Sequence record: NC_028957.1 | Length of the DNA stretch: 64,000 nucleotides | Direction: 5' to 3' (one strand) | Origin: Escherichia phage vB_EcoM_VR26 | In this document: positions 1,952 to 17,016 of the stretch, piece after piece | How the letters are laid out: every line of letters begins with the position of its first letter | Numbering within the stretch: position 1 is the stretch's first letter | Made by a program: the position numbers and the translations under genes | Notes under the pieces: model-generated | Databases searched by the model: none | The model's input: the letters and a program-made list of their open reading frames with translations, nothing else | What the model was told of the DNA's origin: nothing

Positions 1952-1957
1952 TAAATT

Positions 1958-2034: not shown

Positions 2035-2042
2035 TATAAATA
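2035..2042 (+). promoter_or_regulatory. T4-type late promoter TATAAATA
   Basis: Exact TATAAATA between gp18 terminator and downstream genes. Confidence 0.6.
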
Positions 2043-2043
2043 A

Positions 2044-2844
2044 AAGCATAAGGCTCCTATAAACGATTATAGAGCACGCAACCTTTAAGTAAGGTGTTTA
2101 TACATAACACGGATAAAATCGTCCCAGAATCGTTCTGGTGTGTGATTTGAGGCTACTATGATAGTAAGTGATAAACAACTCGTTAATGTAACAAACAGAA
2201 ATGTGACAAATTTGCGTGAGCAAGGTTATGACGTTTTAATCGGAACAAAACATTTGGTGAAAATCGAGCATTTAGGTAAGCGAACTAAAATCGATTGCAA
2301 ATGTGATAAATGTGGTGATGAATACACTGTCACCCAAGATAAAATAAACGAAATCAATATCCAATTCTGCAAAAGCCATAGATGGGAAATTTATTCGGAT
2401 TTGCGTAAAGAATTTTGGAACACACCGGATGGACTAAAAATTCGAAAATCTAAAGGTGCAAAAATCTCCAAAGCCAAAAAGGGTATTCCTTGTATAAATA
2501 CACGCGGGGAATTAAATGGACGATATAATCCGAGATTACGAGAATTTAAACGGTATGCATATGCAGTTCGACAATTCACCGCGTTAAATTTTAAATCTGA
2601 AGTCGAAAATCTCCCAAATTTTGAAAAGACCGGGCGGGCTGGAATTGACGGTGCATATCAGTTAGACCACAAGGTTTCCATTAAATATGGATTTGAAAAT
2701 AATATAGACCCCTCAATCATTGGACATATTTTAAATCTTGAAATGATTCCGTGGGAATTGAATCGAGCAAAGGATATAAATAATAGTATATCAATTCTCG
2801 ATTTACAAAAATATATAGAAAATTATCATAGGAAACAATAACTT
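2044..2844 (+). mobile_element. Putative freestanding homing endonuclease insertion between genes 18 and 19
   Basis: Genes 18 and 19 are adjacent in T4; here a 684-bp HNH-like ORF sits between the late promoter and gene 19. Confidence 0.45.
2158..2841 (+). CDS. HNH-family (Mob-like) homing endonuclease, putative
   Basis: 227 aa; Cys cluster CKCDKCGDEY...CKSH (zinc-finger-like) and HNN-type motif QLDHKVSIKYGFENN...NLEMIPWELNRAK; ATG with GAGG Shine-Dalgarno. Confidence 0.6.
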   Translation: MIVSDKQLVNVTNRNVTNLREQGYDVLIGTKHLVKIEHLGKRTKIDCKCDKCGDEYTVTQDKINEINIQFCKSHRWEIYSDLRKEFWNTPDGLKIRKSKGAKISKAKKGIPCINTRGELNGRYNPRLREFKRYAYAVRQFTALNFKSEVENLPNFEKTGRAGIDGAYQLDHKVSIKYGFENNIDPSIIGHILNLEMIPWELNRAKDINNSISILDLQKYIENYHRKQ

Positions 2845-3336
2845 ATGGAACTTACAGATATCACCAGAGCCTTCGAGTCGGGTGACTTTGCTCGCCCTAA
2901 CCTGTTCGAAGTCGAAATCCCATTCCTGGGTAAAAACTTTGCTTTCCATTGTAAAGCAGCCCCGATGCCAGCAGGCATTGTAGAAAAAGTACCAGTTGGT
3001 TACATGAACCGTAAAATCAACGTTGCGGGAGACCGTACATTTGATGACTGGACTATTACGATTTATAACGACGATGCTCATAAAGTTCGTCAAGCAATTG
3101 TTGATTGGCAAAATATGTGTCACGGTATGACCAACGAAATTACCGGTGCAGCTCCTGCTGATTATAAGAAAACCGCTACTGTTCGCCAGTTCCATCGTGA
3201 TGGCAAGACCGTTACTAAAGAAGTTGTTATCACCGGCATGTGGCCAACTAACGTTGGGGAAGTCCAGATGGATTGGGACAGTAATAATGAGATTGAGACA
3301 TTTGAAACAACGTTTGCAATTGACTGGTGGGAATAA
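2845..3336 (+). CDS. 19: Tail tube protein gp19
   Basis: 163 aa, same length and near-identical to remembered T4 gp19 (MELTDITRAFESGDFARPNLFEV...). Confidence 0.95.
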   Translation: MELTDITRAFESGDFARPNLFEVEIPFLGKNFAFHCKAAPMPAGIVEKVPVGYMNRKINVAGDRTFDDWTITIYNDDAHKVRQAIVDWQNMCHGMTNEITGAAPADYKKTATVRQFHRDGKTVTKEVVITGMWPTNVGEVQMDWDSNNEIETFETTFAIDWWE

Positions 3337-3337
3337 G

Positions 3338-3345
3338 TATAAATA
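3338..3345 (+). promoter_or_regulatory. T4-type late promoter TATAAATA for gene 20
   Basis: Exact TATAAATA directly after gp19 stop. Confidence 0.65.
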
Positions 3346-3353
3346 AAGTTATT

Positions 3354-3371
3354 ATGAGGCTTCGGCCTCAT
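3354..3371 (+). other. Stable stem-loop with UUCG tetraloop in gene 20 leader
   Basis: ATGAGGC-ttcg-GCCTCAT perfect 7-bp stem, not followed by a U-run; likely mRNA 5-prime stabiliser. Confidence 0.5.
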
Positions 3372-3393
3372 TTCCCAAACTTCGGAGACTCTA

Positions 3394-4968
3394 ATGGCAG
3401 GTTTTAATACAATACTAAATTTTCTTAAGCCTTGGGCTAAAGAAGATGAACAAGAATATAAGCAACAAGAAAAAAATAATTTAGAGTCAATGACCGGGCC
3501 GAAGTTTGATGATGGGGCTCGCGAAATTGAGTCACAAGAACAAAACGTCCCGTATAATGCATTGATGCAACAGATGTTCGGGAGCAACGAACCGGAAGTA
3601 AAAAACACCAGGGAATTAATTGACACATACCGCAACCTACTAAATAATTATGAAGTTGATAACGCGGTTCAAGAGATTGTGTCTGATGCCATCGTATTTG
3701 AAGACGGCAAAGATGTTGTAGCTCTTAACCTTGATGCTACCGAATTTAGTCAGAAAATTAAAGACCGAATTCTTGAAGAATTCTCGGAAGTTAATAACCT
3801 CCTTAATTTCGAGCGTAAAGGTTCTGACCACTTTAAACGTTGGTATGTGGATTCTCGAATTTTCTTCCACAAAATTATCAACCCTTCAAAACTTAAAGAA
3901 GGCGTTCAAGAACTTCGTCGCCTTGACCCAAGACAAATCCAGTTCATCCGCGAAATCGTTACACGCATGGAAAATGGTACGAAAATTGTTGACGGTTACA
4001 GAGAATATTTTGTATACGATACAGGTCATGAAAGTTATTGTGCCGATGGTCGTATATATGAAGCGGGTACTAAAATAAAAATTCCTCGTGCGGCAATTGT
4101 ATATGCGCATTCCGGATTACTTGATTGCTGCGGTAAGAATATCATTGGATACCTGCAACGAGCAATCAAACCTGCAAACCAATTAAAACTATTAGAAGAT
4201 GCTTTAGTCATTTATCGTATAACTCGTGCTCCAGACCGCCGAGTCTTTTATATCGATACTGGGAATATGCCGTCTCGTAAAGCAGCAGCACATATGCAAC
4301 ATATTATGAACACGATGAAAAACCGTGTCGTATATGATGCAACTACGGGTAAAATCAAAAACCAACAGCACAATATGTCAATGACAGAAGACTATTGGTT
4401 GCAACGTCGTGACGGTAAAGCAGTCACCGAAGTTGATACTCTCCCAGGTGCACAAGGCATGTCGGATATGGACGATGTTCGCTGGTTTAAGAACAACCTA
4501 TATCAGGCTCTCAGAATTCCATTATCTCGTATCCCTAATGACCAGAACAGCGGCGTTATGTTTGATGCGGGGGCGACAATTACTCGCGATGAATTGAATT
4601 TCTCTAAATGGATTAGACAACTACAGAATAAATTTGAAGAAGTTTTCCTCGACCCGCTTAAAACCAACCTTATCCTGAAAAAAGTTATTTCAGAAGAGGA
4701 ATGGGACAAGGAACTAAATAATATTAAAGTTACGTTCAACCGTGATAGCTATTTCACCGAAATGAAAGATGCAGAAATCATGGAACGCAGAATCAATATG
4801 CTAACGATGGCTGAACCGTTTATCGGTAAATATATTTCGCATCAAACGGCTATGAAGGATTTCCTCCAGATGTCTGATGAAGAAATTAATCAAGAAGCTA
4901 AGCAAATTGAATTGGAGTCCAAAGAGGCTCGTTTCCAAAACCCTGAAGAAGAAGAAGAGGATTTCTAA
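3394..4968 (+). CDS. 20: Portal vertex protein gp20
   Basis: 524 aa (same as T4 gp20); GGAG Shine-Dalgarno; conserved gene order. Confidence 0.95.
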
Positions 4969-5231
4969 TGGATGATTTATTTGAAGCCATTAAATCAAAC
5001 GACCTCGTAGCCGTTCGCAAATATTTTGCTGAAAACATTGGCCCAGTATGCGGTAGTTTGATTCAAGAACGTAAGATTGAAATTGCACGTTCCATCATGA
5101 TTGAAGGCGAAGAGCCTAAAGAAGATGATGAAGACGATAAAGATACCAAGGACGAGAAGAAAGATAAAAAAGATTCTGACGATGCCGATGAAGGCGACGA
5201 TGATGATGAAGACGATGAGGACGACGAATAA
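4968..5231 (+). CDS. 67: Prohead core protein gp67 (acidic C-terminus)
   Basis: 87 aa with poly-Asp/Glu tail; TAATG overlap with gene 20; T4 synteny. Confidence 0.8.
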
Positions 5232-5659
5232 TGCTTATTCTCCCTGAAGGTTACGAATTAACTCTTGAAAATATCGAAAGTATTTCAGAAGCAGCTCAGG
5301 GACAATTTGACTCATTATCCGAAGCCTTAGAAACGGACGATATAAATATTATTGTAGAAAACATGTTTGCCAACGGTGAGATTGAAAAAGCAATCGTTAT
5401 CGGTGCCCTGAATGAAGATATTCAGCTTGACGAATTTATCGTTAAACATGTATCGTCCCGCGGTGAATTAACCCGCACAAAAGACCGTGCTACTCGTAGC
5501 CGTAACGCTTTCCAGACAACCGGTCTTTCTAAAGCAAAACGTCGTCAAATTGCCCGTAAAGCTACTAAAACCAAACGTGCAAACCCATCAACGCAAATCA
5601 GAGCAGAGCGCAAGCGCAAAAAAGCTCGAGCTAAGCGTAAAGCATTCGGACTGAATTAA
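5231..5659 (+). CDS. 68: Prohead core protein gp68
   Basis: 142 aa (T4 gp68 about 141 aa); basic C-terminus; translationally coupled. Confidence 0.75.
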
Positions 5660-6297
5660 TGGAACAGAAACCAGAGTTACTAATCGAACACTGGGGTCAA
5701 CCGGGCGAAATTAAAGATGGTGTACCGATGCTGGAATCACATGATGGTTCTGGCAGCGGTTTAAAACCAGGGCTTTATATTGAAGGGATTTTCCTACAAG
5801 CTGAAGTTGTCAACCGTAATAAACGACTTTATCCTAAACATATTTTGGAAAAAGCCGTTGCGGATTATATCGCCGAACAGGTTGAAACCAAGCAGTCACT
5901 TGGAGAATTAAACCATCCGCCCCGTGCGAACGTCGACCCTATGCAAGCCGCAATTATTATTGAAGAAATGTGGTGGAAAGGAAATGATGTATATGGACGT
6001 GCACGAATTATTGAAGGCGACCATGGCCCAGGTGATAAACTTGCCGCAAATATAAGAGCAGGTTGGATTCCGGGTGTATCTAGTCGTGGACTTGGTTCCT
6101 TGACTAAATCAGCCAAAGGTTATAGTATCGTCAACGAAGGTTTTAAATTGACGGTTGGAGTGGATGCAGTATGGGGGCCGAGTGCTCCGGACGCTTGGGT
6201 CAAACCGAAGCAGATTACAGAATCACAAACGGCAGTTGCCGATACCAGTGCCGATGACGCCTTTATGGCTCTCGCAGAGGCTTTAAAGACGTTATAA
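5659..6297 (+). CDS. 21: Prohead core scaffold protease gp21
   Basis: 212 aa, same as T4 gp21; synteny 68-21-22-23. Confidence 0.92.
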   Translation: MEQKPELLIEHWGQPGEIKDGVPMLESHDGSGSGLKPGLYIEGIFLQAEVVNRNKRLYPKHILEKAVADYIAEQVETKQSLGELNHPPRANVDPMQAAIIIEEMWWKGNDVYGRARIIEGDHGPGDKLAANIRAGWIPGVSSRGLGSLTKSAKGYSIVNEGFKLTVGVDAVWGPSAPDAWVKPKQITESQTAVADTSADDAFMALAEALKTL

Positions 6298-6300
6298 ATA
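6293..6300 (+). promoter_or_regulatory. T4-type late promoter TATAAATA for gene 22
   Basis: Exact TATAAATA overlapping gp21 stop, 30 nt before gene 22 ATG. Confidence 0.65.
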
Positions 6301-6329
6301 AATGTATATCTTAACAACAGGACTACAAA

Positions 6330-7148
6330 ATGCTTAAAGAACAACTCATCGCCGAAGCTCAGACCATCGATGCTTCCGTTGCTCTTGATAGTATTTTCGA
6401 ATCAGTTAATTTGTCCCCGGAAGCGAAAGCTACCTTCGGCACTGTATTCGAAGCTACCGTCAAGCAACACGCCGTTAAACTGGCAGAAATGCACATTCAG
6501 AAAATTGCTGAAAAAGCAGAAGAAGAAGTAGAAAAGAATAAAGAAGAATCTGACGAAAAAGCAGAGAAAAAACTGAAAGAATCCGCAGCTAAATTCCTTG
6601 ACCACGTTGCTAAAGAGTGGCTGGCAGAAAATAAACTGGCTGTTGACCGTGGTATTAAAGCTGACCTGTTCGAATCCATGTTTACTGGCATGAAAGAACT
6701 GTTTGTTGAGCACAACGTTGTTGTTCCAGAAGACTCTGTTGATGTTGTTGCAGAAATGCAGGAAGAACTGGAAGAGCAAAAAGCTGAAACCGCTAGTCTG
6801 TTCGAAGAAGTTTCTAAGCGTGATGCTTATATCAATTATGTCCAGCGCGAAGTTGCGTTGACTGAAGCGACCAAAGACCTGACCGAATCTCAGAAAGAAA
6901 AAGTTGGTTCTCTGGTAGAAGGTATGGATTATTCCGATGCGTTCGGTACCAAAATTGGCGCTATCGTTGAAATGGTTAAAGGTCAGGTAGACACCGCCGA
7001 AAAACCTATCACCGAAGCAGCTATAAATAATTCTGTAGACGATGCTGCGGCACTGAATTACATCTCAGAAGCAGTTGAAGAAAAAGGCGCCAAGCCTACC
7101 CTGTCCTTCGCGGACTTGTCTGCTCTCGCAGCATCACGAATTTCTTAA
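6330..7148 (+). CDS. 22: Prohead scaffold protein gp22
   Basis: 272 aa, Glu/Lys-rich coiled-coil-like; T4 synteny. Confidence 0.9.
   Translation: MLKEQLIAEAQTIDASVALDSIFESVNLSPEAKATFGTVFEATVKQHAVKLAEMHIQKIAEKAEEEVEKNKEESDEKAEKKLKESAAKFLDHVAKEWLAENKLAVDRGIKADLFESMFTGMKELFVEHNVVVPEDSVDVVAEMQEELEEQKAETASLFEEVSKRDAYINYVQREVALTEATKDLTESQKEKVGSLVEGMDYSDAFGTKIGAIVEMVKGQVDTAEKPITEAAINNSVDDAAALNYISEAVEEKGAKPTLSFADLSALAASRIS
7022..7029 (+). promoter_or_regulatory. Candidate late promoter TATAAATA inside gene 22 3-prime end (for gene 23)
   Basis: Exact TATAAATA about 140 nt upstream of gene 23 ATG; no other canonical motif nearer. Confidence 0.4.
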
Positions 7149-7169
7149 TTTAATAAGGTTATACAACAC

Positions 7170-8729
7170 ATGAAAAAGAATGCATTAGTTCAAAAATGGT
7201 CCGCTCTGCTGGAAAACGAAGCTCTTCCTGAAATCGTTGGTGCTTCTAAACAAGCTATCATCGCTAAAATCTTTGAAAACCAGGAACAAGATATCCTGAC
7301 CGCTCCTGAATACCGTGACGAAAAAATCTCCGAAGCATTTGGTTCTTTCCTGACTGAAGCTGAAATCGGTGGTGACCATGGTTATGATGCTACCAATATC
7401 GCGGCTGGCCAGACCTCTGGTGCAGTAACTCAGATTGGGCCGGCAGTTATGGGTATGGTTCGTCGTGCTATCCCACATCTGATTGCGTTTGATATTTGTG
7501 GCGTACAGCCTCTGAACAACCCGACTGGCCAGGTATTTGCCCTGCGTGCAGTTTACGGTAAAGACCCTGTAGCTGCTGGTGCTAAAGAAGCTTTCCACCC
7601 GATGTATGCTCCGAACGCTATGTTCTCCGGTCAGGGCGCTGCTGAAGCTTTCGAAGCTCTGGCTGCAAGCAAAGTTCTTACCGTTGGTAAAATTTATTCT
7701 CACTTCTTCGAAGCAACCGGTTCCGCACACTACCAGGCTGTTGAAGCTGTAACCGTTGATGCCGCCGCTACTGATGCTGCTAAACTTGACGCTGAAGTTA
7801 CCAAACTGCTCGAAGCTGGTAAGCTGGCAGAAATCGCTGAAGGTATGGCTACCTCTATCGCCGAACTGCAGGAAGGTTTCAACGGTTCTCAGGATAACCC
7901 GTGGAACGAAATGGGCTTCCGCATCGATAAACAAGTTATCGAAGCTAAATCCCGTCAGCTGAAAGCAAGCTACTCTATCGAACTGGCACAGGACCTGCGC
8001 GCTGTTCACGGTATGGATGCTGATGCCGAATTGAGTGGTATTCTGGCTACTGAAATTATGCTGGAAATCAACCGCGAAGTTATCGATTGGATTAACTACT
8101 CCGCACAGGTTGGTAAATCTGGTATGACCAACACCGTTGGCGCTAAAGCTGGTGTGTTTGACTTCCAGGACCCAATTGATATCCGTGGCGCTCGTTGGGC
8201 TGGTGAAAGCTTCAAAGCTTTACTGTTCCAGATTGATAAAGAAGCCGCTGAAATCGCTCGTCAGACCGGTCGTGGTGCAGGTAACTTCATCATCGCTTCC
8301 CGTAACGTAGTTAACGTACTGGCTGCAGTTGATACCTCCGTATCTTATGCTGCTCAGGGTCTGGGTAAAGGTTTCAACGTTGACACCACTAAAGCTGTGT
8401 TCGCTGGTGTTCTGGGTGGCAAATACCGTGTCTATATCGACCAGTATGCTCGCGCAGATTACTTCACCATCGGTTACAAAGGCGCTAACGAAATGGATGC
8501 TGGTATCTACTACGCACCATATGTTGCACTGACCCCGCTGCGTGGCTCTGACCCGAAAAACTTCCAGCCAGTTATGGGCTTCAAAACCCGTTACGGTATC
8601 GGTATTAACCCGTTCGCTGACCCGGCAGCTCAGGCTCCGACCAAGCGTATTCAAAACGGCATGCCGGACATCGTTAACAGCCTCGGCTTGAACGGTTACT
8701 TCCGCCGCGTATATGTTAAAGGAATTTAA
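7170..8729 (+). CDS. 23: Major capsid protein gp23
   Basis: 519 aa (T4 gp23 521 aa); strong similarity to remembered gp23. Confidence 0.97.
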   Translation: MKKNALVQKWSALLENEALPEIVGASKQAIIAKIFENQEQDILTAPEYRDEKISEAFGSFLTEAEIGGDHGYDATNIAAGQTSGAVTQIGPAVMGMVRRAIPHLIAFDICGVQPLNNPTGQVFALRAVYGKDPVAAGAKEAFHPMYAPNAMFSGQGAAEAFEALAASKVLTVGKIYSHFFEATGSAHYQAVEAVTVDAAATDAAKLDAEVTKLLEAGKLAEIAEGMATSIAELQEGFNGSQDNPWNEMGFRIDKQVIEAKSRQLKASYSIELAQDLRAVHGMDADAELSGILATEIMLEINREVIDWINYSAQVGKSGMTNTVGAKAGVFDFQDPIDIRGARWAGESFKALLFQIDKEAAEIARQTGRGAGNFIIASRNVVNVLAAVDTSVSYAAQGLGKGFNVDTTKAVFAGVLGGKYRVYIDQYARADYFTIGYKGANEMDAGIYYAPYVALTPLRGSDPKNFQPVMGFKTRYGIGINPFADPAAQAPTKRIQNGMPDIVNSLGLNGYFRRVYVKGI

Positions 8730-8751
8730 TCTTAGATTAAGTTAAATAAAA

Positions 8752-8778
8752 AGGGACCCTTGAGGTCCCTTTCTTGTT
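8752..8778 (+). terminator. Rho-independent terminator after gene 23
   Basis: AGGGACC-loop-GGTCCCT hairpin followed by TTCTTGTTTT. Confidence 0.7.
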
Positions 8779-8779
8779 T

Positions 8780-9073
8780 TCATACCATACCATTTAAATG
8801 AACTTCTACCCGGCGCTTGATGAGGTCTCTGAAATTAACACTGTTCTCTTGAAGTTTCAACCAGTTACCCGATTTGTCTCTGGTGTGAGTAGAATAATTA
8901 CCATTCCACCAAAAATCAGTGTCATATGCTAAGTTTTCATATTTTTTAACTAGTTTGTTCAGAGCATTACCATTAACACCATTTGGGTATTTGTTGACCA
9001 ATGCAACAACTTCAATTTCCAGATTTTTAAAGGTATTCCGAAGGAAAGATACTTTGTTCATTTTAGACTCCAT
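8780..9073 (-). CDS. Hypothetical protein (occupies segD position of T4)
   Basis: 97-aa ORF antisense between genes 23 and 24, with its own early-type promoter upstream; no recognisable motif. Confidence 0.5.
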   Translation of the reverse strand: MESKMNKVSFLRNTFKNLEIEVVALVNKYPNGVNGNALNKLVKKYENLAYDTDFWWNGNYSTHTRDKSGNWLKLQENSVNFRDLIKRRVEVHLNGMV

Positions 9074-9097
9074 TGTTTGGTAACTCAGTATGAAATC

Positions 9098-9127
9098 ATT
9101 ATGTCTTATCTTAATCGGGTTGTAAAC
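9098..9127 (-). promoter_or_regulatory. T4 early-type promoter (GTTTAC-N18-CATAAT)
   Basis: -35 GTTTAC and -10 CATAAT on minus strand upstream of 8780..9073; conserved downstream box also at about 35000 and 52000. Confidence 0.55.
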
Positions 9128-9133
9128 AACTTT

Positions 9134-9141
9134 TATAAATA
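9134..9141 (+). promoter_or_regulatory. T4-type late promoter TATAAATA for gene 24
   Basis: Exact TATAAATA 27 nt before gene 24 ATG. Confidence 0.65.
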
Positions 9142-9167
9142 AAGTATATCACAAAAGGAAAGCGCAA

Positions 9168-10448
9168 ATGGCAAAGATTAACAAATTACTGCGCGAGTCA
9201 ACTACCACTACCAGCAACTCCTTGGGCCGCCCGAATCTTGTTGCTTTGACCCGTGCTACAACCAAATTGATTTACCGCGATATTATCGCTGAACAACGTA
9301 CTAACCAGCCAGTTGCTGCGCTGTACGGTGTTAAATATCTTACTCCTGATAATGAATTCAGTTTCCAGACTGGTGCTACTTATGGTGGTGAAGTTGGTTC
9401 TAAAGACCGTGAAACAATTCCGGAATTTACAACCCCAACTCAGGCCGTAGCTAAAGGTGGATACATTAAATTCCAGAATATCGTTTATAAAGCTCTGGTT
9501 GATAATCCATTTGCATCGACCACAGAAACAGTGTTATCTGATGTTCTGCAAGAAGGTCTTGTTGCATTAACTATTCGTTTAGTTCCTGATGCTGCACACA
9601 CCGAAAAATTTGAAGCTGGTGATGTTGAAATTAGTAACGCCGTGTTCCAGGTTAATAAATGGAATGCTCCTGTTAAATCCCGTAAATTGAAAACTGCATT
9701 AACTGTTGAGCTTGCTCAGGATATGGAAGCAAATGGCTTTAATGCTCCTGCATTCCTGGAAGACCTGCTTGCTACTATTATGGCAGATGAAATTAACAAA
9801 GATGTTCTTCAGTCTCTTATTACCGTTTCCAAGCGTTATAAAGTAACTGGCGTTTCTGACAATGGCACCATCGATTTAACATATGATGCAGCTCCAGAAG
9901 GTGCACGTAAACTGTACGAACTGGTTTGTGAAATGAACTCTGAAATTCAGAAAACTACATCTTACTCTGGTACATTCGTTGTTGCCTCAAGTCGTGTGGC
10001 TGCGATGCTCGCCGGTTCCGGTTGGTTGAAACATAAACCTGAAGATGAACAATGGCTCCCGGAAACCGCGTATGGTTATTTGATTAATGGTCTTCCTGTA
10101 TTCTGTGATGTTAACAGCCCATTGGATTATGTGACTGTTGGTGTTAAAGAGAATTATGGTGGTAACGAGGTCGTGGGCTCAATTTTCTATGCTCCTTATA
10201 CAGAAGGCCTGGACTTAGATGATGAAGAGCATGTAGGCGCGTTTAAGGTCATTGTGGACCCAGACAGCTTGCAGCCATCTATCTCCCTGATGGTTCGATA
10301 TGCACTTTCAGCTAACCCTTACACCGTTGCTAAAGACGACAAAGAAGCTCGTATTATCGATGCAACTAATATGGATTTAATGGCTGGCCAGAGCAACATG
10401 TCTTATCTGCTCGGTGTTAAACTTCCACCAATCATTTATGAGGCGTAA
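9168..10448 (+). CDS. 24: Head vertex protein gp24 (copy 1)
   Basis: 426 aa; N-terminus MAKINKLLRESTTT..., close to remembered T4 gp24 (427 aa). Confidence 0.93.
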   Translation: MAKINKLLRESTTTTSNSLGRPNLVALTRATTKLIYRDIIAEQRTNQPVAALYGVKYLTPDNEFSFQTGATYGGEVGSKDRETIPEFTTPTQAVAKGGYIKFQNIVYKALVDNPFASTTETVLSDVLQEGLVALTIRLVPDAAHTEKFEAGDVEISNAVFQVNKWNAPVKSRKLKTALTVELAQDMEANGFNAPAFLEDLLATIMADEINKDVLQSLITVSKRYKVTGVSDNGTIDLTYDAAPEGARKLYELVCEMNSEIQKTTSYSGTFVVASSRVAAMLAGSGWLKHKPEDEQWLPETAYGYLINGLPVFCDVNSPLDYVTVGVKENYGGNEVVGSIFYAPYTEGLDLDDEEHVGAFKVIVDPDSLQPSISLMVRYALSANPYTVAKDDKEARIIDATNMDLMAGQSNMSYLLGVKLPPIIYEA

Positions 10449-11732
10449 ATGCAAAAGATTAACGCACTAATTCACGAATCAACATTAACGGCGGCCAACC
10501 AGGTCGCCCGTCCTAATTTGCTTTCTTATACTCGAGCTACGAATAAACGAATTTTTAAAGCTCTCGTGGCCGAACAGAAAACTACTCAGCCAGTTGCAGC
10601 GCTGTATGGCGTTCGTGTTCTGAACCCAGATGATAAAATGACTTATCTTGGTGGAGCAACGTTTGCCGGTCAAATTGGTATGTTCGAGCGTAAGAATATT
10701 CCAGAATTTACGAACAAAGACGAAGCTTATGCAGTCGGCGATATGTTCCAGTTTGAAAGCATTGTATTCAAAGCTTTGGAAGCTTCTCCTTTTGCCGGGA
10801 CCCTCGAAACTGATTTGGGTGAAGTTATTTCTGAAGCCATTGCGGCTGGCCATATAAGAATGATGTCAGATGCGGCTTTCACTGATAAATTTGAACAAGG
10901 ACATCCTGAAATTGCTGAAGCCGGTTTCCGTATCGATAAATGGCAGACTGAAGTTAAATCCAGAAAACTGAAAACCTCTTTAACCGTTGAGCTTGCGCAA
11001 GACCTGGAAGCAAATGGTTTCGACGCAACAGATTTTATTGATAATATCCTTGGCATTCAAATGGCAGAGGAAATTAATAAGGACGTACTGCAATCTTTAA
11101 TTACCGTAAGTTCACGTTTTAAAGTCCAGGGTGTTTCCGAAAAAGGTGTACTTAATCTTACTGATGCCGCTTATGATAATGCTCAGGACCGTGCTCGAAC
11201 TCTGTATTATTATATGTGCGAAATGAATTCCGCAGTTCAACGTCAGACTTCGTTCGCTGGTACATATGCAGTCGCTTCTTCCCGTTGTGCAGCTATTTTA
11301 GCCGCTTCTGGCTGGGTTGAGAAAAAGGAAGACCAAGATGAATTGGCCTATGGTGTTCTGAAGAACGGTTTGCCACTTTATGCAGATATGAATAGCCCGT
11401 GCGATTATGTTATTGTTGGTGTAAATGCTGATATGGGTGAAGGCCAGACGGTCGCATCTTTGTATTATGCGCCTTATACGGAAGGTCTTAGTGAAGTTGA
11501 TGATGAGGGTGACACCTCGGTTGGGGAATTCAAGGTTATTGTTGACCCTGAAAGTTTACAGCCTACAGTTGCATTGTTAGCTCGTTATGCACTGACTGCG
11601 AACCCTTATACCGTTGCTAAAGACGATAAAGAAGCTCGCATTATTGATGGGGCTGATATGGATAAGATGGCTAACCAAAGTCAATTGAGTTCTTATCTTG
11701 GTGTTAAACTTCCACCACTGGAAAAAGAATAA
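10449..11732 (+). CDS. Head vertex protein gp24 paralog (copy 2)
   Basis: 427 aa, collinear similarity to copy 1 along whole length (shared KSRKLKT.LTVELAQD.EANGF, INKDVLQSLITVS, NPYTVAKDDKEARIID); directly abutting copy 1. Confidence 0.9.
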   Translation: MQKINALIHESTLTAANQVARPNLLSYTRATNKRIFKALVAEQKTTQPVAALYGVRVLNPDDKMTYLGGATFAGQIGMFERKNIPEFTNKDEAYAVGDMFQFESIVFKALEASPFAGTLETDLGEVISEAIAAGHIRMMSDAAFTDKFEQGHPEIAEAGFRIDKWQTEVKSRKLKTSLTVELAQDLEANGFDATDFIDNILGIQMAEEINKDVLQSLITVSSRFKVQGVSEKGVLNLTDAAYDNAQDRARTLYYYMCEMNSAVQRQTSFAGTYAVASSRCAAILAASGWVEKKEDQDELAYGVLKNGLPLYADMNSPCDYVIVGVNADMGEGQTVASLYYAPYTEGLSEVDDEGDTSVGEFKVIVDPESLQPTVALLARYALTANPYTVAKDDKEARIIDGADMDKMANQSQLSSYLGVKLPPLEKE

Positions 11733-11752
11733 GGGCCTTGCGGCCCTTTTTA
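11733..11752. terminator. Bidirectional terminator between gene 24 paralog and rnlB
   Basis: GGGCC-ttgc-GGCCC hairpin followed by TTTTT. Confidence 0.7.
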
Positions 11753-12757
11753 TTAACTAATTAATGCAATCCAAACATGTCTTAATGTATCTCTTACATT
11801 TGCAATGAGTTGCTTTTTAACTTCAACAGGATTTTCTGCATCGGTTAATTCTAATTCTTCACGGGACGCCTCTTCCAAAATATCTTGGGCTGTTAGTCCC
11901 ATTACCTTTCCGAAATCCTTAGGCGTTACTTCACCAATCTTACTGATAACATTGTTAATACGGTTAACAGTCACATAATCAGTGAATTGCCACAGCAGGT
12001 CCATGTCATCTTGGGACAACACAACAGCAGCCTTGATAGGCTTATCAGACTTTTTCTTTTCGCTAAATTTAGAGTTCTTACATTTAATCGCTACGCGCTC
12101 ACCATTAGGTAACCAGGCAGGAGTATCAGGTTTAAGAACATACCCTTCTGCAGTGAATACTTTACCTTCAACCTTTGCGTCAAAATCGGTGGTATTCGCG
12201 GTAGTCAAACCCGCATTATCTACTGTAAAATTGTAATCAGGAACCACAGAATCCAGGTCGTTAGGGAGCTTAATCAAGTCTTCAAAGCTACCCGTAGCCA
12301 GGCGTGGGGCAACCTTAAATTTATGGATAATACAGAAGGCTTCCATCAATGAATCAGTCAAAACAGATTCAGAGCCATCTTCCTTAGTAACGCGGATATC
12401 AAATACATAGAAATCTTTGTCACCATAATCCACATTCTTCTGGATACCGGCCCCGGCAAACTCACCATAAATTTGGTATGATTGATAATTAATATCCTGT
12501 AAAAGTCTCTGCACAGTTTTAATGGAATCTGCATAGTTCTTGAGTACAATTTCGTAGCCATAGAAATCTTCTGCAGGTGGGATAGGTCCAGTGCGTTTCG
12601 CACATGTCACATTGTCTTGTTCAATGATTAATGAAAAGTTGGTGCCATGAATCTTTTCACGCGCTACCCATTCACCGCTGGTGAAGCCTTGCAGGCGAAT
12701 CTTTTCAATGAACTTGTTGTTATAGTGATTTTCAAGGCTGTTGTATTTCTTAAACAT
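11753..12757 (-). CDS. rnlB: RNA ligase 2 (Rnl2)
   Basis: 334 aa, same as T4 Rnl2; nucleotidyltransferase motif I KIHGTN; N-terminus near-identical to remembered T4 Rnl2. Confidence 0.9.
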
Positions 12758-13487: not shown

Positions 13488-15014
13488 ATGACACAAACTA
13501 CAGGTGAAAAAGAAGGCGTATTTTACGGTTATTCTCTTTATGATTTGAATAAAGAAAAACTAATAACTTTTGATGAATTACTTACGGGTATTCAAGGAGA
13601 GCCCGGAGAAAATGGCGATATTGGACCAAAAGGCCCTATTGGTTTAACAGGTCCTCAAGGACCGAAAGGTGATATCGGGTCAAAAGGTATTAAAGGTGAT
13701 ACAGGTCCTCAAGGTATTCAAGGGCCCGCTGGCCCACAAGGTCCTCAGGGAGAAAAGGGAGTCCAAGGTTTAGCTGGAGTCCAAGGCATTCAAGGACCAG
13801 TCGGCCACCAAGGAGTGAAAGGTGATACCGGCCCTCAAGGTATTCAAGGACCGAAAGGTGATACAGGAGCACAAGGCCCACAAGGTGACAAAGGCGAAAT
13901 GGGTCCGGTGGGTCCGGCTGGTCTAACATGGAAAGGAACATGGGACGCTGATGTAGAGTATTCTATAAATGAGGCTGTCGGATATGGTGGTTCTTTATAT
14001 TTCGCCAAAACAAAAGTTCCTAATGGCGAAATACCAACACCGACTTCTAACTATTGGGGTGTTTTGGCTACCGAGGGTCCACAAGGTCCACAAGGTCAAC
14101 AAGGTCTTAAAGGTGATACCGGTCCTCAAGGTATTCAAGGACCTGTAGGGCCTGTAGGGCCGCAGGGTATTCAGGGACCAAGAGGACTTCAAGGGTCAGA
14201 AGGTGAAATAGGACCGCGGGGTATTCAAGGGCTAAAAGGCGAAACTGGGCCCGCTGGTCCACAGGGTATTCAAGGGCTAAAAGGCGAGGTGGGTGCTCAG
14301 GGTCCTTCTGGTTCTCCTGGACTTACAGGACCAGAAGGACCTCGTGGGTTAACAGGCGAAGCTGGAGCTCAAGGACCTCGTGGTGCTATAGGTCCTATCG
14401 GTTTAACAGGTCCTATCGGTTTAACGGGTCCTCAAGGTATTCAAGGTCCGAAAGGTGATACAGGTCCTCAAGGCTTACAAGGTCCTCAAGGCTTACGAGG
14501 TATTCAAGGAGCTCCTGGAGTAAAAGGAGAAGCGGGTGCACAAGGTCCGAAAGGTGATACAGGAGCACAAGGTCCTATTGGTTTAACTGGACCTAAAGGT
14601 GATACAGGCCCGAGCCCTTATACTGTTTATAATTATTCTAATGTTGCAACTGGTTATGCTGAAATGGTTATGCCTGGTGTGTCATCAAACACAGTATTTA
14701 GACTTCGTTCAGTTGGAACTAATATAGAATATAGTGTTCTAAGTAAAGGCGGAGCTAATAGATATGTAGATTGGCACTTTTCAATTCCAAGTGTTTCCGG
14801 CAATACAGTAAGTACTAATAGCGGAACTAATACATTAACTCCTACAGGTAATTTTACTATTGTGGCGACCGCTTATAATGGACTAAGGGGATTTACAATA
14901 ACATTATGCGAGTGGGGTTCAAGAGCTATTGTTGATATCACTGTTTATCATCATGGGCGTTCGGGAGACACAACCAAAGCTGTGGCTATTCGTATGACTA
15001 CTACAAAATACTAA
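13488..15014 (+). CDS. Collagen-like triple-helix repeat protein with carbohydrate-binding-like insert and C-terminal globular domain
   Basis: 508 aa; two Gly-X-Y tracts (37 and 60 triplets) separated by a W.GTW....Y..N..V.Y.GS.Y insert resembling CBM5/12-type motifs; about 130-aa non-repetitive C-terminal domain; GGAGG Shine-Dalgarno. Confidence 0.85.
   Translation: MTQTTGEKEGVFYGYSLYDLNKEKLITFDELLTGIQGEPGENGDIGPKGPIGLTGPQGPKGDIGSKGIKGDTGPQGIQGPAGPQGPQGEKGVQGLAGVQGIQGPVGHQGVKGDTGPQGIQGPKGDTGAQGPQGDKGEMGPVGPAGLTWKGTWDADVEYSINEAVGYGGSLYFAKTKVPNGEIPTPTSNYWGVLATEGPQGPQGQQGLKGDTGPQGIQGPVGPVGPQGIQGPRGLQGSEGEIGPRGIQGLKGETGPAGPQGIQGLKGEVGAQGPSGSPGLTGPEGPRGLTGEAGAQGPRGAIGPIGLTGPIGLTGPQGIQGPKGDTGPQGLQGPQGLRGIQGAPGVKGEAGAQGPKGDTGAQGPIGLTGPKGDTGPSPYTVYNYSNVATGYAEMVMPGVSSNTVFRLRSVGTNIEYSVLSKGGANRYVDWHFSIPSVSGNTVSTNSGTNTLTPTGNFTIVATAYNGLRGFTITLCEWGSRAIVDITVYHHGRSGDTTKAVAIRMTTTKY
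13596..13928 (+). repeat. Collagen Gly-X-Y coding triplet array 1 (37 triplets)
   Basis: Uninterrupted GXY repeats with recurring GPQGIQG/GDTGPQG units. Confidence 0.9.
14076..14615 (+). repeat. Collagen Gly-X-Y coding triplet array 2 (60 triplets, includes tandem GPIGLTGPIGLTGP)
   Basis: Uninterrupted GXY repeats; direct DNA repeat ggtcctatcggtttaac x2 near 14390. Confidence 0.9.
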
Positions 15015-15023
15015 GGAGCTTTA

Positions 15024-15887
15024 ATGGAACCGGTTAAAGCTGTGTTAGAGCCTGATGTAATAGATGTGGAATATGGTAATACATACTCGGCTACTGTAAC
15101 TCTGTCTCCTATAGAAAATATTCCAGATGGTTCCGTGATAAGATATGATTGGGTTGTTAATAACAAGTTCGTTGGTACGGGTGAAGCTACTCGTACCACC
15201 CAACCATCTCAGACCGGAAATTATGTATTATCATGTAGAGTATTCATTACTCCGCCTAATGAAAATACTGTAATGGTAACAACTAATAAATCATATGGGT
15301 ATGTATATAAAAATTCCGATACAAGTCCAGTAGATGCAGAAATATTATATGATAACAAGATATACCAAGTAGGAAGCAAAGTTAGATTATTAGCCGTTGC
15401 CAATAACCCAGATACCAACTTTGTTAAAGGTATTATATGGAAGGATGCTGATGGTAAGATAATAGGTATAGGTCGGGAATATATCCATACAATGCAATCA
15501 GAGTATGATATAGTTCGAGCTAAAGTTACAATGGATTCGCCTATAAGAGATGAATTTAGTAAGAACTTTACTATACATTTGTACGCTATAAATGTTCAAG
15601 AAGGAACATGTATAAGATATATTCATCCTTTAGACCACAGGGATGCAGGATTTATCTGGTGTGGTTGGTGGGTTATGGATGAAATCCAACGAGCGATAAA
15701 ACTTGGGCTGGATTGGAAAAATCCAAAAGAGCTAGATTTAAATTACAAGTGTGATTTAGAGACATTAGCGTTATTGCTCAAGACATATCCTGAAGCCGAA
15801 GTTCAAGAATCAAGACACGGATATATAATAACCAGACTACAAATTGAGACTGGCGGAATATATGAAAAACCATATGAAGTAAAATAA
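15024..15887 (+). CDS. Hoc-like decoration protein paralog (Ig-like N-terminal region plus Hoc-type capsid-binding C-terminal domain)
   Basis: 287 aa; C-terminal HPLDHRDAGFIWCGWWVMDEIQ...YPEAEVQESRHGYII matches Hoc C-terminus (YVHPLP...YIWCGWWVMD...YPEVDVQESRNG); AGGAG Shine-Dalgarno; 9 nt after collagen-like gene. Confidence 0.8.
   Translation: MEPVKAVLEPDVIDVEYGNTYSATVTLSPIENIPDGSVIRYDWVVNNKFVGTGEATRTTQPSQTGNYVLSCRVFITPPNENTVMVTTNKSYGYVYKNSDTSPVDAEILYDNKIYQVGSKVRLLAVANNPDTNFVKGIIWKDADGKIIGIGREYIHTMQSEYDIVRAKVTMDSPIRDEFSKNFTIHLYAINVQEGTCIRYIHPLDHRDAGFIWCGWWVMDEIQRAIKLGLDWKNPKELDLNYKCDLETLALLLKTYPEAEVQESRHGYIITRLQIETGGIYEKPYEVK
15657..15679 (+). repeat. 23-bp perfect inverted repeat, arm 1 (TGGTGTGGTTGGTGGGTTATGGA, encodes WCGWWVMD)
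   Basis: Exact reverse complement present at about 16112..16134 inside hoc. Confidence 0.85.
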
Positions 15888-15912: not shown

Positions 15913-17016
15913 TTAATAGACGTAATCGTATATAATACCAGCTTCCAATGCCGAACGGTGGACGATACGACCGTTACGAGATTCCTGTACATCAACTTCC
16001 GGGTAATCACTAAGCATTTTGGCTAATACCGCCAGATGACAATAATATGGTGTATCCTCTTTAGTGGCTTTTTTCCAATCTGTACTTTCAGATGTTAATT
16101 TCTGAATAGCGTCCATAACCCACCAACCACACCAAATATACGCAGTATTACGGACAGGAAGTGGATGTACATAAATTAAAGGACATTCTTCTGGAACAAC
16201 AGGCTCTGCTTCTGTCACCGTAACAGACTTATTACCTGATTTAACTGAATTTGTAAAGCCTGTTTGTGATGCAGTAACTTCACAAGTATATGACTTCAAG
16301 CCTTCAGTGGATTCCGTTATTGCTCTTGTTGCTTCTGTTGAGTTGTCGTCCCATTTATATGCAAGAGTAGCGCCAGGAATAGCAGGGGACACAGAAGCTG
16401 TCAAATTGAATGGAACATCAACCGTTGCAGTAGACGGGCCTGAAATCTCAACAGTGAACTCAGGGAATGTATTGTTTTCGACCGTAACAACTACTGCATC
16501 AGGATTAATAACTTGGTTGTCATAATCTGCAGCAGAAATGGTAATTTGACAAGTTAAAGAAACCGGCCCTGCAACAGTAGCAGTACGAGTAATATCTTTA
16601 GTAATTTCACCAGTAGACCACAAATATGCTATTGTAGCTCCACCAGGTTCACCTGTTACATTAGCCGAAGCGTTATATTCCTCGCCAACTTTAACGGTTG
16701 GAGTGGAAGTTGTTAATGTTGCAGTTGCAGACATAGTCTTGTTATTAACTGTAATAGTTGTTTGAGCCTCTGCCGTTTCAGGCTCTCCTTCTTCCGGCGT
16801 TGTGGTGGCAACAACTTTAATTACTTTTGAACCTGCTGGGCCAGCTGCAATATAATCCATAGTAGCAATAACAGAAGCTTGTGGAACCTCATCAACGGTC
16901 CATACAAAAGATTCGGTACCAGCGACAGCGGCTCCAGCCCCAGTAGCAGTAAAATTAGTTGTTGCACCTATAACCGCTGTAGGTGTTAAAGGGGCAATTG
17001 ATACAGTATAAGCCAT
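15913..17016 (-). CDS. hoc: Highly immunogenic outer capsid protein Hoc
   Basis: 367 aa (T4 Hoc 376 aa); N-terminus MAYTVSIAPLTPTAVIGATTNFTATG like T4 Hoc; Ig-like repeats; C-terminal capsid-binding domain. Confidence 0.88.
   Translation of the reverse strand: MAYTVSIAPLTPTAVIGATTNFTATGAGAAVAGTESFVWTVDEVPQASVIATMDYIAAGPAGSKVIKVVATTTPEEGEPETAEAQTTITVNNKTMSATATLTTSTPTVKVGEEYNASANVTGEPGGATIAYLWSTGEITKDITRTATVAGPVSLTCQITISAADYDNQVINPDAVVVTVENNTFPEFTVEISGPSTATVDVPFNLTASVSPAIPGATLAYKWDDNSTEATRAITESTEGLKSYTCEVTASQTGFTNSVKSGNKSVTVTEAEPVVPEECPLIYVHPLPVRNTAYIWCGWWVMDAIQKLTSESTDWKKATKEDTPYYCHLAVLAKMLSDYPEVDVQESRNGRIVHRSALEAGIIYDYVY
16112..16134 (-). repeat. 23-bp perfect inverted repeat, arm 2
   Basis: Reverse complement of 15657..15679. 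Confidence 0.85.

What the first reader, a model, noticed from the sequence alone, without database searches (positions are those of the whole stretch)
9168..11732. Tandem duplication of head vertex gene 24
Two adjacent full-length gp24 paralogs (426 and 427 aa) share blocks of identity along their whole length, separated by a single nucleotide. gp24 is itself an ancient paralog of gp23 that forms the pentameric vertices. Two diverged copies raise the question of whether both are incorporated or one is specialised or a spare.
Basis: seen in the sequence. Interest (0 to 1): 0.55.

Follow-up and report, generated by a model that had tools for sequence, protein, structure and literature searches.

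The report
Two tandem T4-type vertex protein genes
This VR7-like T4-type coliphage carries two intact, co-expressed genes for the protein that caps the corners of its head; the pair is real but already annotated in several phage genera, it descends from one very old duplication, and what the second copy does is still unknown.

Summary
ORFs 9168-10448 (426 aa, c1) and 10449-11732 (427 aa, c2) are both full-length gp24 homologues and are 57% identical. They abut with no intergenic base, not one. The window is a Gaprivervirus; c2 is 100% identical to VR7 24(2). The pair is already annotated in JS98 (24a/24b), VR7 and S16-like phages, and is noted in print for S16 and Melville.

New here: this is not a recent or lineage-specific duplication.
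- c2 belongs to a distinct, monophyletic gp24-II clade (down to 65% identity). It occurs in Dhaka-, Gapriver- and S16-like phages, the Erwinia phages Cronus, IT22 and FBB1, and many metagenome contigs.
- In all 13 contexts checked, c2 lies directly downstream of a canonical gp24.
- Likelihood placement puts c2 as sister to the whole canonical enterobacterial gp24 clade, so T4, RB69-like and other genera have lost it.
- Both copies are under strong purifying selection (dN/dS 0.02-0.19) and keep the propeptide cleavage motif. They form one late operon.
- c2's diagnostic substitutions are mostly derived and cluster in the N-arm and I-domain linker, a segment that includes an intra-pentamer contact in T4.

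The best reading is that both are processed head proteins. Division of labour between vertices is an untested inference. Interest is modest.

The parts
7170..8729 (+). Gene 23, the major capsid protein. It is upstream context and the distant paralog of both gp24 copies.
   Evidence: 519 aa; Pfam PF07068 E = 1.7e-122. Annotated as gene 23 in VR7 and JS98.
8750..8772 (.). G+C-rich hairpin (terminator-like on both strands) that separates gene 23 from the gp24 operon.
   Evidence: Terminator scan: 9-12 bp stem followed by a T-run.
9134..9141 (+). T4-type late promoter motif TATAAATA, 27 nt upstream of c1. It is the only such motif serving both genes.
   Evidence: Exact match; 17 matches in the window against 4.35 expected. 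The motif is conserved upstream of c1 in 9 of the 10 loci read; in mgL021 it is one base off (CATAAATA). There is none between c1 and c2.
9155..9162 (+). Shine-Dalgarno-like AAGGAAAG for c1.
   Evidence: Read directly from the sequence.
9168..10448 (+). c1: canonical gene 24, the orthologue of T4 gp24 (equivalent to VR7 24(1) and JS98 24a). Codons 1-10 encode the propeptide MAKINKLLRE, ending in the L-x-E motif.
   Evidence: About 70% identical to T4 gp24 and 99.8% to VR20 'capsid vertex protein I'. It lies inside the canonical clade in the ML tree. It shares the canonical 2-aa insertion at T4 residues 292-293. dN/dS is 0.04-0.19.
10440..10443 (+). GAGG Shine-Dalgarno for c2, lying inside the last codons of c1. 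Together with the TAA-ATG junction it suggests translational coupling.
   Evidence: Sequence read. The c1/c2 junction spans -4 to +1 nt in all 10 loci.
10449..11732 (+). c2: gp24-II paralog (equivalent to VR7 24(2) and JS98 24b). Codons 1-10 encode the propeptide MQKINALIHE, ending in the I-x-E motif.
   Evidence: 100% identical to VR7 24(2). It belongs to a monophyletic c2 clade. An AF2 model (pLDDT 75.6) matches T4 gp24* 5vf3_a with TM 0.86/0.88. dN/dS is 0.02-0.09. It carries the eight N-terminal c2-diagnostic residues: L25, S26, N32, R34, F36, R56, V57 and G68 (and the sequence).
11731..11748 (.). Bidirectional terminator hairpin. It closes the c1-c2 operon and the convergent rnlB gene.
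   Evidence: 7-bp stem with 5 G-C pairs and T-runs on both strands.
11753..12757 (-). rnlB, RNA ligase 2. It is the convergent downstream neighbour, as in T4.
   Evidence: Pfam PF09414 and PF18043; VR7 and JS98 annotation.

Best explanation
The locus is a bicistronic late operon: late promoter, c1, c2, terminator. It encodes two head vertex proteins.

c1 is the orthologue of T4 gp24. c2 belongs to a separate, old 'gp24-II' family. That family arose by tandem duplication of gene 24 before the enterobacterial T4-like genera radiated. Some genera retained it (Dhakavirus, Gaprivervirus, S16-like Salmonella phages, Erwinia phages Cronus, IT22 and FBB1, and many uncultured lineages). Others lost it (T4, a Mosigvirus, Moonvirus, Karamvirus, Kagamiyamavirus).

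Shown here:
- Both genes are intact and co-transcribed by arrangement, and probably translationally coupled.
- Both are under strong purifying selection.
- Both have the full-length gp24 fold.
- Both keep the 10-residue propeptide with the (L/I)-x-E motif that the prohead protease gp21 cuts in T4.

Inferred:
- Both are built into the prohead and processed there.
- After a burst of c2-specific substitutions, concentrated in the N-terminal arm and I-domain linker, the paralogs assemble into separate c1 and c2 pentamers. In T4, part of that segment pairs with the neighbouring subunit of the same pentamer.
- The two kinds of pentamer share out the 11 non-portal vertices of the prolate head, for example apex versus shoulder vertices. 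c1 can cover all of them when c2 is lost.

The confidence figure refers to the core claim: an ancient duplicate, with both products being functional, processed head proteins. I put the vertex-partition step at only about 0.25-0.3.
For: Anatomy:
- ORFs and junction.
- A TATAAATA motif only upstream of c1, and terminator hairpins on both sides.
- The gp23-c1-c2 order, a -4 to +1 nt junction and a late promoter motif are conserved in 10 loci, with the promoter motif one base off in mgL021. The gene order holds in 13 independent contexts.

Function retained:
- Orthologue dN/dS is 0.04-0.19 for c1, 0.02-0.09 for c2 and 0.02-0.17 for gp23.
- All 27 c2-clade proteins keep (L/I)-x-E10 followed by S11.
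- 144 of 427 sites are conserved and identical in both clades.
- c2 matches 1YUE at E = 7.9e-149, and its AF2 model matches T4 gp24* with TM 0.86/0.88.

Age of the duplication:
- dS between the paralogs is saturated (1.4 to more than 2.7) and dN is about 0.36-0.41 in six genomes.
- The c2 clade is monophyletic, with identities from 98% down to 65%.
- ML placement is best as sister to the whole canonical clade, lnL -14307.6. Placing c2 as sister to the Dhaka/Gapriver c1 clade costs 57 lnL units (z = 3.7). Sister to WIN/JS98 c1 costs 118 (z = 5.7). RELL support for the best of the four topologies compared is 0.9997.
- The canonical clade has a 2-aa insertion at T4 292-293 that is absent from c2 and from all outgroups.
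- c1-c1 and c2-c2 distances co-vary across 18 genomes (Mantel r = 0.86, p = 2e-4).
- Two-copy phages fall in at least three separate gp23 clades, interleaved with single-copy genera.

Functional shift in c2:
- The c2 stem is 0.31 substitutions per site against 0.11 for the canonical stem, yet crown rates are no higher.
- 16 of the 18 diagnostic sites are derived in c2.
- 8 of the 18 lie in T4 residues 25-68 (Fisher p = 6e-4).
- In T4, residues 26-29 form a beta-interaction with the I-domain linker of the adjacent subunit of the same pentamer (PMC9546572).
Against: - There is no direct evidence that either product, and c2 in particular, is in the virion. No proteomics, genetics or structure of a two-copy phage was found in the held library.
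- In T4 all 55 gp24* subunits adopt essentially one conformation at all 11 vertices. Geometry therefore does not obviously demand two vertex proteins.
- c2 has been lost repeatedly, so it is dispensable on evolutionary time scales.
- The ML analysis used my own implementation with a BLOSUM62-derived rate matrix and a fixed backbone. Placements one or two nodes deeper, including next to Jiaodavirus gp24, are only 4.7-8.3 lnL units worse. The exact node, and duplication versus early lateral acquisition, are not settled.
- Eight of the 18 c1/c2 pairings used for the Mantel test rest on matching contig lengths, not on inspected contigs.
Confidence: 0.7

Rival explanations
1. Interchangeable or mixed vertex subunits. 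c1 and c2 both fill any vertex, as mixed pentamers or stochastically as homopentamers. The pair is kept for dosage, robustness, or condition-dependent fitness such as temperature, pH or host.
For: The genes are co-transcribed and probably translationally coupled, so both are made at the same time. 144 sites are conserved in common, including most of the P and A domains. T4 vertices tolerate substitution even by mutated gp23 (bypass-24 mutants; PMC10580926).
Against: Simple redundancy does not predict 18 fixed paralog-specific residues, 16 of them derived in c2 and clustered in the N-arm/I-linker segment. It also does not predict retention of both copies at dN/dS below 0.1 after synonymous sites have saturated.
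Confidence: 0.2
2. c2 is a xenolog. It was acquired early by recombination from a divergent T4-like lineage and inserted next to the resident gene 24, rather than arising by duplication in place.
For: c2 is as close to the single gp24 of Jiaodavirus (63-64% identity) as to any canonical gp24, and closer than to its own neighbour (57%). Placements next to or just below JD18 are only 4.7-5.3 lnL units worse than the best. T4-like phages are mosaic. c1 itself has been swapped between close relatives: between the window phage and VR7, dS is 0.30 for c1 but 0.076 for c2. The metagenome phage mgL023 combines a JD18-like gp23 with a T4-group c1.
Against: No lineage was found in which a c2-type protein is the only gp24. 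It was preceded by c1 in 13 of 13 contexts. c1 and c2 distances co-vary (Mantel r = 0.86). The best ML position, as sister of the whole canonical clade, is what a duplication in their common ancestor predicts.
Confidence: 0.12
3. c2 has a new role and is no longer a shell pentamer. It could be an assembly factor, a core component, or a decoy or modulator for host defences that sense capsid proteins.
For: c2 shows an asymmetric burst of change on its stem (0.31 against 0.11 substitutions per site). It has been lost repeatedly without loss of viability. The gp24 of T6 is needed to trigger type IV Thoeris, so vertex proteins are under defence-related selection (PMC13243611).
Against: The whole gp24 fold is kept, including the propeptide motif and the conserved P- and A-domain residues. 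In T6, wild-type gp24 supplied in trans restores immunity, so sensing is dominant and an extra copy would not hide the phage. The residue that mutates in T6 escapers, A380, is Ala in both copies.
Confidence: 0.08
4. A recent duplication specific to the JS98/VR7 lineage, in which the second copy is a fast-drifting, redundant spare.
For: The genes are in tandem. c2 is less similar to T4 gp24 (about 56%) than c1 is (about 70%).
Against: Placing c2 as sister to the Dhaka/Gapriver c1 clade costs 57 lnL units, and as sister to WIN/JS98 c1 costs 118. c2 orthologues exist in S16-like phages, Erwinia phages and many metagenome lineages. dN/dS for c2 is 0.02-0.09. dS between the paralogs is saturated, and the longest shared nucleotide word is 18 nt.
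Confidence: 0.02

Closest known systems
T4 gp24 head vertex protein (PDB 1YUE; gp24* in 5VF3, 7VRT, 7VS5)
   Same: c1 is its orthologue. It is about 70% identical, has the same length and the same position after gene 23 behind a late promoter, has the same propeptide (T4 MAKINELLRE, window c1 MAKINKLLRE), and shares the derived 292-293 insertion. c2 shares the whole fold (TM 0.86/0.88) and the propeptide motif.
   Different: T4 has a single gene 24. c2 is about 56% identical to it and lies outside the clade that contains T4 gp24 and every c1. c2 also carries 18 fixed diagnostic substitutions and lacks the 292-293 insertion.
Annotated gp24 pairs: JS98 24a/24b, VR7 24(1)/24(2), VR5/VR20/VR25 'capsid vertex protein I/II', S16/Melville/CGG4-1 'head vertex protein I/II'
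   Same: This is the same two-gene module. Window c2 is 100% identical to VR7 24(2), and c1 is 99.8% identical to VR20 protein I. The order and junction are identical. [quoted passage not shown]
   Different: Nothing differs structurally. In what I could read, the published notes treat the pair as a feature of single genomes. I found no statement that the second copies form one ancient orthologous family, and no functional data.
gp23/gp24 duplication in T4-like phages (vertex protein derived from the major capsid protein)
   Same: The principle is the same: tandem duplication of a capsid gene, followed by specialisation of the downstream copy for a particular lattice position. This would be a second round of the same process at the same locus.
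   Different: gp23 and gp24 are about 21% identical and have proven distinct positions (hexamers versus pentamers). c1 and c2 are 57% identical, and any positional specialisation is unproven.

Membership tests
T4 gp24 capsid vertex protein family (within Pfam PF07068) | Full-length sequence homology to T4 gp24 | tested here: met
   phmmer against PDB chain 1yue_A: c1 E = 2.7e-196 over residues 1-424; c2 E = 7.9e-149 over residues 1-424. Pfam PF07068 E is about 1e-97 for both.
T4 gp24 capsid vertex protein family (within Pfam PF07068) | HK97-type fold with the inserted I domain, closer to gp24* than to gp23* | tested here: met
   AF2 model of c2: pLDDT 75.6, pTM 0.71. Foldseek: 5vf3_a (gp24*) TM 0.86/0.88, rmsd 3.3 A; the best gp23* chains give TM of about 0.6. 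c1 was not modelled; it is about 70% identical to the solved protein.
T4 gp24 capsid vertex protein family (within Pfam PF07068) | N-terminal 10-residue propeptide ending in the (L/I)-x-E site cut by prohead protease gp21 | tested here: met
   c1 has MAKINKLLRE followed by S. c2 has MQKINALIHE followed by S. The motif is kept in all 27 c2-clade and the 84 canonical sequences. A gp21 homologue is present at 5659-6297 (PF03420). Only the motif was tested; actual cleavage cannot be tested with these tools.
T4 gp24 capsid vertex protein family (within Pfam PF07068) | Gene located just downstream of gene 23 and expressed from a late promoter | tested here: met
   The order is gp23, c1, c2. TATAAATA lies at 9134-9141. 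The order is conserved in all 10 loci and the exact motif in 9 of them.
T4 gp24 capsid vertex protein family (within Pfam PF07068) | Forms pentamers at the 11 non-portal vertices of the head | not testable with these tools
   This needs virion proteomics or cryo-EM. No such data for a two-copy phage were found in the held literature.
Orthologue of T4 gene 24 (canonical clade) | Branches inside the clade containing T4, Mosigvirus, Moonvirus and Karamvirus gp24, and shares the 2-aa insertion at T4 292-293 | tested here: met
   This holds for c1: ML tree and indel. It does not hold for c2. c2 is sister to that whole clade and lacks the insertion.
gp24-II paralog family (JS98 24b / VR7 24(2) / second head vertex protein of S16) | Member of the monophyletic c2 clade, carrying its diagnostic residues (for example L25, S26, N32, R34, F36, R56, V57, G68) | tested here: met
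   Window c2 is 100% identical to VR7 24(2). It lies in the c2 clade. The eight N-terminal diagnostic residues were read directly in the window sequence.
gp24-II paralog family (JS98 24b / VR7 24(2) / second head vertex protein of S16) | Lies immediately 3' of a canonical gene 24 with an overlapping or abutting junction and no promoter of its own | tested here: met
   0-nt junction in the window. The junction spans -4 to +1 nt in 10 loci. The same order is seen in 13 contexts. There is no TATAAATA between the genes.

The most novel reading that the evidence does not exclude
c2 pentamers occupy a fixed subset of the 11 non-portal vertices of the prolate head, for example the single apical vertex or one ring of five, while c1 occupies the rest. 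That would make these phages the first tailed viruses known to use two different penton proteins for geometrically different vertices. It would also be a second round of the gp23-to-gp24 specialisation, one that T4 itself has lost.
Probability: 0.25. Interest if true: 0.65.

Novelty: already known. Interest (0 to 1): 0.3.

Why it matters
As an observation this is ordinary. The gp24 pair has been in GenBank annotations since JS98 and VR7 and is mentioned in print for S16 and Melville.

The second look adds context. The second copy is not a local oddity. It belongs to an old, conserved, strongly constrained paralog family present in roughly a tenth of sequenced gp24-bearing phages, and the model phage T4 lacks it.

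That leaves a small, well-posed question in capsid assembly: why would a prolate T4-type head keep two vertex proteins, and do they mark different vertices? It is answerable with routine virion mass spectrometry, knock-outs and cryo-EM of phages already in culture, such as VR7, JS98 and S16.

There is also a practical point. PHROGs and Pfam lump gp23, c1 and c2 together. Automated annotation therefore often labels all three 'major head protein', and the I/II names are applied inconsistently between records.

Tried and rejected
- **NJ trees with Kimura distances.** These put c2 next to JD18 with only 51% bootstrap and could reflect long-branch attraction. I replaced them with likelihood placement and an indel character.
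- **AF2 on a 31-sequence alignment.** It failed with pLDDT 45 and was discarded. A 107-sequence alignment gave a usable model.
- **Literature.** The JS98 genome paper (PMC2168658) is not held. Six full-text searches for proteomics, genetics or discussion of the two gp24 copies found nothing. A seventh gave only T4 structural context. An eighth led to the one-sentence note on Melville and S16. The transposon-mutagenesis preprint and the Sextaphag paper turned out to be unrelated.
- **NCBIfam.** No model matches either copy. PHROGs puts both in phrog_138, 'major head protein', so the libraries do not separate the paralogs.
- **Gene conversion between the copies.** I rejected this. The longest shared nucleotide word is 18 nt. 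Third-position identity is about 0.3-0.6 throughout. The c1-c2 distance within a genome (0.43-0.48) is no smaller than between genomes (mean 0.45).
- **Defence evasion by an extra copy.** This is unlikely. Sensing of gp24 in T6 is dominant, and the escape position A380 is unchanged in both copies.
- **A gene that co-occurs with c2.** I looked at collagen-like and Hoc-like genes and at extra ORFs downstream. None is consistent across the two-copy lineages.
Full report
**1. The observation**

The window holds two adjacent + strand ORFs at exactly the stated coordinates: 9168-10448 (426 aa, here c1) and 10449-11732 (427 aa, here c2). They align over their full length with 245/428 identities (57%) and E = 6e-178. 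Both match Pfam PF07068 end to end. Both match the solved T4 gp24 (1YUE) over residues 1-424, with E = 2.7e-196 for c1 and 7.9e-149 for c2. One detail in the finding is wrong. The TAA stop of c1 (10446-10448) is followed directly by the ATG of c2 (10449), so the intergenic distance is zero, not one.

**2. Where the window comes from and what is already annotated**

Megablast of 7000-12000 gives 96-97% identity to Escherichia phages VR25, VR7 and VR20 of the genus Gaprivervirus, and about 84-86% to JS98-like Dhakavirus. These GenBank records already annotate the pair: VR7 '24(1)/24(2)', JS98 '24a/24b', VR5/VR20/VR25 'capsid vertex protein I/II'. Window c2 is 100% identical to VR7 24(2).

**3. 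Anatomy of the locus**

- A hairpin terminator follows gene 23 at 8750-8772.
- The T4 late-promoter motif TATAAATA lies at 9134-9141, and a Shine-Dalgarno sequence follows at 9155-9162.
- c1 and c2 come next. The GAGG ribosome-binding site of c2 (10440-10443) sits inside the end of c1.
- A bidirectional hairpin at 11731-11748 closes the unit against the convergent rnlB gene.
- There is no late-promoter motif between the two genes.

The same layout recurs in all 10 related loci I read: gp23, a late promoter motif, c1, then c2, with a c1/c2 junction of -4 to +1 nt. The promoter motif is one base off in mgL021. By arrangement the pair is a single late operon with probable translational coupling.

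**4. Both genes are maintained by selection**

Nei-Gojobori estimates between orthologues give dN/dS of 0.04-0.19 for c1, 0.02-0.09 for c2 and 0.02-0.17 for gp23. Between the paralogs, dS is saturated (1.4 to more than 2.7) and dN is about 0.36-0.41 in six genomes.

There is no sign of recent gene conversion. The longest shared nucleotide word is 18 nt. The c1-c2 protein distance within a genome (0.43-0.48) is no smaller than between genomes (mean 0.45).

An AlphaFold2 model of c2 built on a 107-sequence alignment (pLDDT 75.6, pTM 0.71) superposes on mature T4 gp24* (5vf3_a) with TM 0.86/0.88 and rmsd 3.3 A. The best gp23* chains reach TM of only about 0.6. A first model from 31 sequences was unusable (pLDDT 45).

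**5. The second copy is a widespread, old paralog family**

A search of 5.8 billion proteins with c2 returned a graded series from 98% down to 65% identity (P0001-P0021). It includes Salmonella phage AKM_NP4 and Erwinia phage FBB1. FBB1 also contributes a canonical copy from the same genome.

tblastn with the FBB1 c2 finds the pair in these groups:
- Erwinia phages Cronus, IT22 and FBB1;
- Salmonella phages S16, STML-198, STP4-a, Melville, CGG4-1 and SEA1;
- Dhakavirus and Gaprivervirus.

At E < 1e-100 there are 1204 matching places in 1088 records. About 116 records, or 11%, therefore carry two gp24 genes.

In all 13 independent genomic contexts inspected, a c2-type gene lies directly downstream of a canonical gp24, and it was never alone. 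Single-copy loci were confirmed for T4, a Mosigvirus, a Moonvirus, two Karamvirus, Kagamiyamavirus EcS1 and Jiaodavirus JD18.

**6. When the duplication happened**

c1 is about 70% identical to T4 gp24 but only 57-58% identical to c2. c2 is about 56% identical to T4 gp24 and 63-64% identical to Jiaodavirus gp24.

NJ trees recover a monophyletic c2 clade on a long stem, but its attachment point is weakly supported. I therefore wrote a likelihood engine with a BLOSUM62-derived exchangeabilities matrix, empirical frequencies and four gamma rate categories, applied to 36 taxa and 419 columns. I optimised the tree (lnL -14312.7, alpha 0.83) and regrafted the c2 clade onto every backbone branch.

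| Placement of the c2 clade | lnL cost | z |
|---|---|---|
| Sister to the whole canonical clade (all c1 plus T4, KM16, ZX13, EcS1, PM2, PEi20, Serratia 4S) | 0 (best) | – |
| One or two nodes deeper, or next to JD18 | 4.7-8.3 | not computed |
| Sister to the FBB1-group c1 | 31.5 | 2.9 |
| Sister to the Dhaka/Gapriver/MY742/CGG4-1 c1 clade | 57.4 | 3.7 |
| Sister to WIN/JS98 c1 | 118.2 | 5.7 |

The last three rows are after full branch-length optimisation, where the best tree has lnL -14307.6. RELL support for the best of the four topologies compared is 0.9997.

Other results point the same way.
- An independent rare character agrees. The canonical clade, including the c1 sequences inspected, has residues at T4 292-293. 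These are absent from every c2 and from Jiaodavirus, Tegunavirus, Acinetobacter-phage and Proteus-phage gp24.
- c1-c1 and c2-c2 distances co-vary across 18 genomes (Mantel r = 0.86, p = 2e-4). Eight of those pairings rest on equal contig lengths only.
- On a gp23 tree the two-copy phages fall in at least three clades interleaved with single-copy genera.

The simplest account is one duplication near the base of the enterobacterial T4-like radiation, co-inheritance of both copies, and several losses of c2. An early lateral acquisition cannot be excluded, because the deeper placements are only slightly worse.

Mosaicism is evident. Between the window phage and VR7, c1 has dS 0.30 while c2 has 0.076 and gp23 has 0.042. 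The metagenome phage mgL023 combines a JD18-like gp23 with a T4-group c1.

**7. How c2 differs**

The c2 stem is 0.31 substitutions per site against 0.11 for the canonical stem. Within the crown, c2 evolves no faster than c1. This is a burst followed by a freeze.

Of 427 T4-numbered sites, 144 are conserved and identical in both clades. Eighteen are conserved in both but differ between them. At 16 of those 18 sites the outgroups carry the canonical residue, so the change is derived in c2.

Eight of the 18 lie in T4 residues 25-68: V25L, A26S, T32N, L34R, Y36F, K56R, Y57V and T68G. This is an enrichment relative to shared-conserved sites (Fisher p = 6e-4). In the T4 head structures, gp24* residues 26-29 form a parallel beta-interaction with an I-domain linker of the adjacent subunit of the same pentamer. 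Residues 11-20 reach onto the neighbouring hexamer (PMC9546572).

All 27 c2 proteins keep the (L/I)-x-E10 followed by S11 propeptide junction. A gp21 protease homologue is encoded at 5659-6297.

**8. Interpretation**

Shown: there are two intact, co-expressed, strongly constrained gp24-fold proteins. c1 is orthologous to T4 gp24. c2 belongs to an old paralog family.

Inferred: both enter the prohead and are processed, because the propeptide motif is retained. The paralog-specific changes in the N-arm/I-linker segment, part of which is an intra-pentamer contact in T4, favour separate c1 and c2 pentamers.

Speculative (about 0.25-0.3): the two kinds of pentamer occupy different classes of the 11 non-portal vertices of the prolate head. 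Two things weigh against this. T4 gp24* looks the same at all vertices, and c2 has been lost repeatedly.

A defence-evasion role is unlikely. Sensing of gp24 in T6 by type IV Thoeris is dominant (PMC13243611), and the escape residue A380 is unchanged in both copies.

**9. Verdict**

It is already known as an annotation and has a one-line mention in the literature. The function of the second copy remains open and can be tested with standard methods. Interest is modest.

Noticed in passing
window 13488-15014 (+): A 508-aa protein made largely of G-X-Y collagen triple-helix repeats (Pfam PF01391, E = 2.2e-47). It sits in the hoc/inh region of the head gene block and corresponds to VR7ORF196w. It may be a capsid fibre or decoration protein.
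   Followed up: partly
window 15024-15887 (+) and 15913-17016 (-): Two convergent ORFs of 287 and 367 aa share a C-terminal block of about 105 aa at 44% identity (E = 4e-28). The VR7 counterpart of the first is annotated as Hoc-like. The phage therefore seems to carry two Hoc-type decoration paralogs as well as two vertex paralogs. Neither has a Pfam hit.
   Followed up: partly
window 8780-9073 (-): A small reverse-strand ORF of 97 aa lies between genes 23 and 24, where T4 has the segD homing endonuclease. It has no Pfam match. It is conserved as VR7ORF190c and JS98 orf173, and is labelled 'glycosyl hydrolase family 25' in one record (EAWsc9).
   Followed up: no
window 9168-10448 compared with L001 (VR7) 5168-6448: Allele swapping of c1 among near-identical phages. 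Between the window phage and VR7, dS is 0.30 for c1 but 0.076 for c2 and 0.042 for gp23. Window c1 is 99.8% identical in protein to VR20. The two paralogs can therefore recombine independently.
   Followed up: partly
L019 4890-6427; L021 6326-7841; L025 2634-4140; L023 6327-7046; L026 5312-6046: In several divergent two-copy lineages, one or two extra + strand ORFs with no Pfam hit follow c2 directly, before the convergent rnlB block. They are about 334-352 aa plus about 166 aa, or about 240 aa. They are absent from the window. They may be co-transcribed head accessory genes.
   Followed up: no
L023 (metagenome contig SRR22802695_265) compared with L005 (JD18): This phage's gp23 is sister to that of the single-copy Jiaodavirus JD18. 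Yet it carries both c1 (in the T4-group clade) and c2. This is a clear mosaic within the head gene block.
   Followed up: partly
L003 (MY742), L018 (dhabil); PHROGs phrog_138: Annotation is inconsistent. MY742 labels gp23, c1 and c2 all as 'major head protein'. dhabil calls the downstream copy 'capsid vertex protein I'. PHROGs and Pfam place gp23 and both gp24 types in one family, and NCBIfam has no model for either copy.
   Followed up: yes
whole window: There are 17 exact TATAAATA motifs against 4.35 expected (0 of 100 shuffles reach 17). Most are on the + strand in the head and neck gene block at 1331-9141, consistent with T4-type late promoters.
   Followed up: partly
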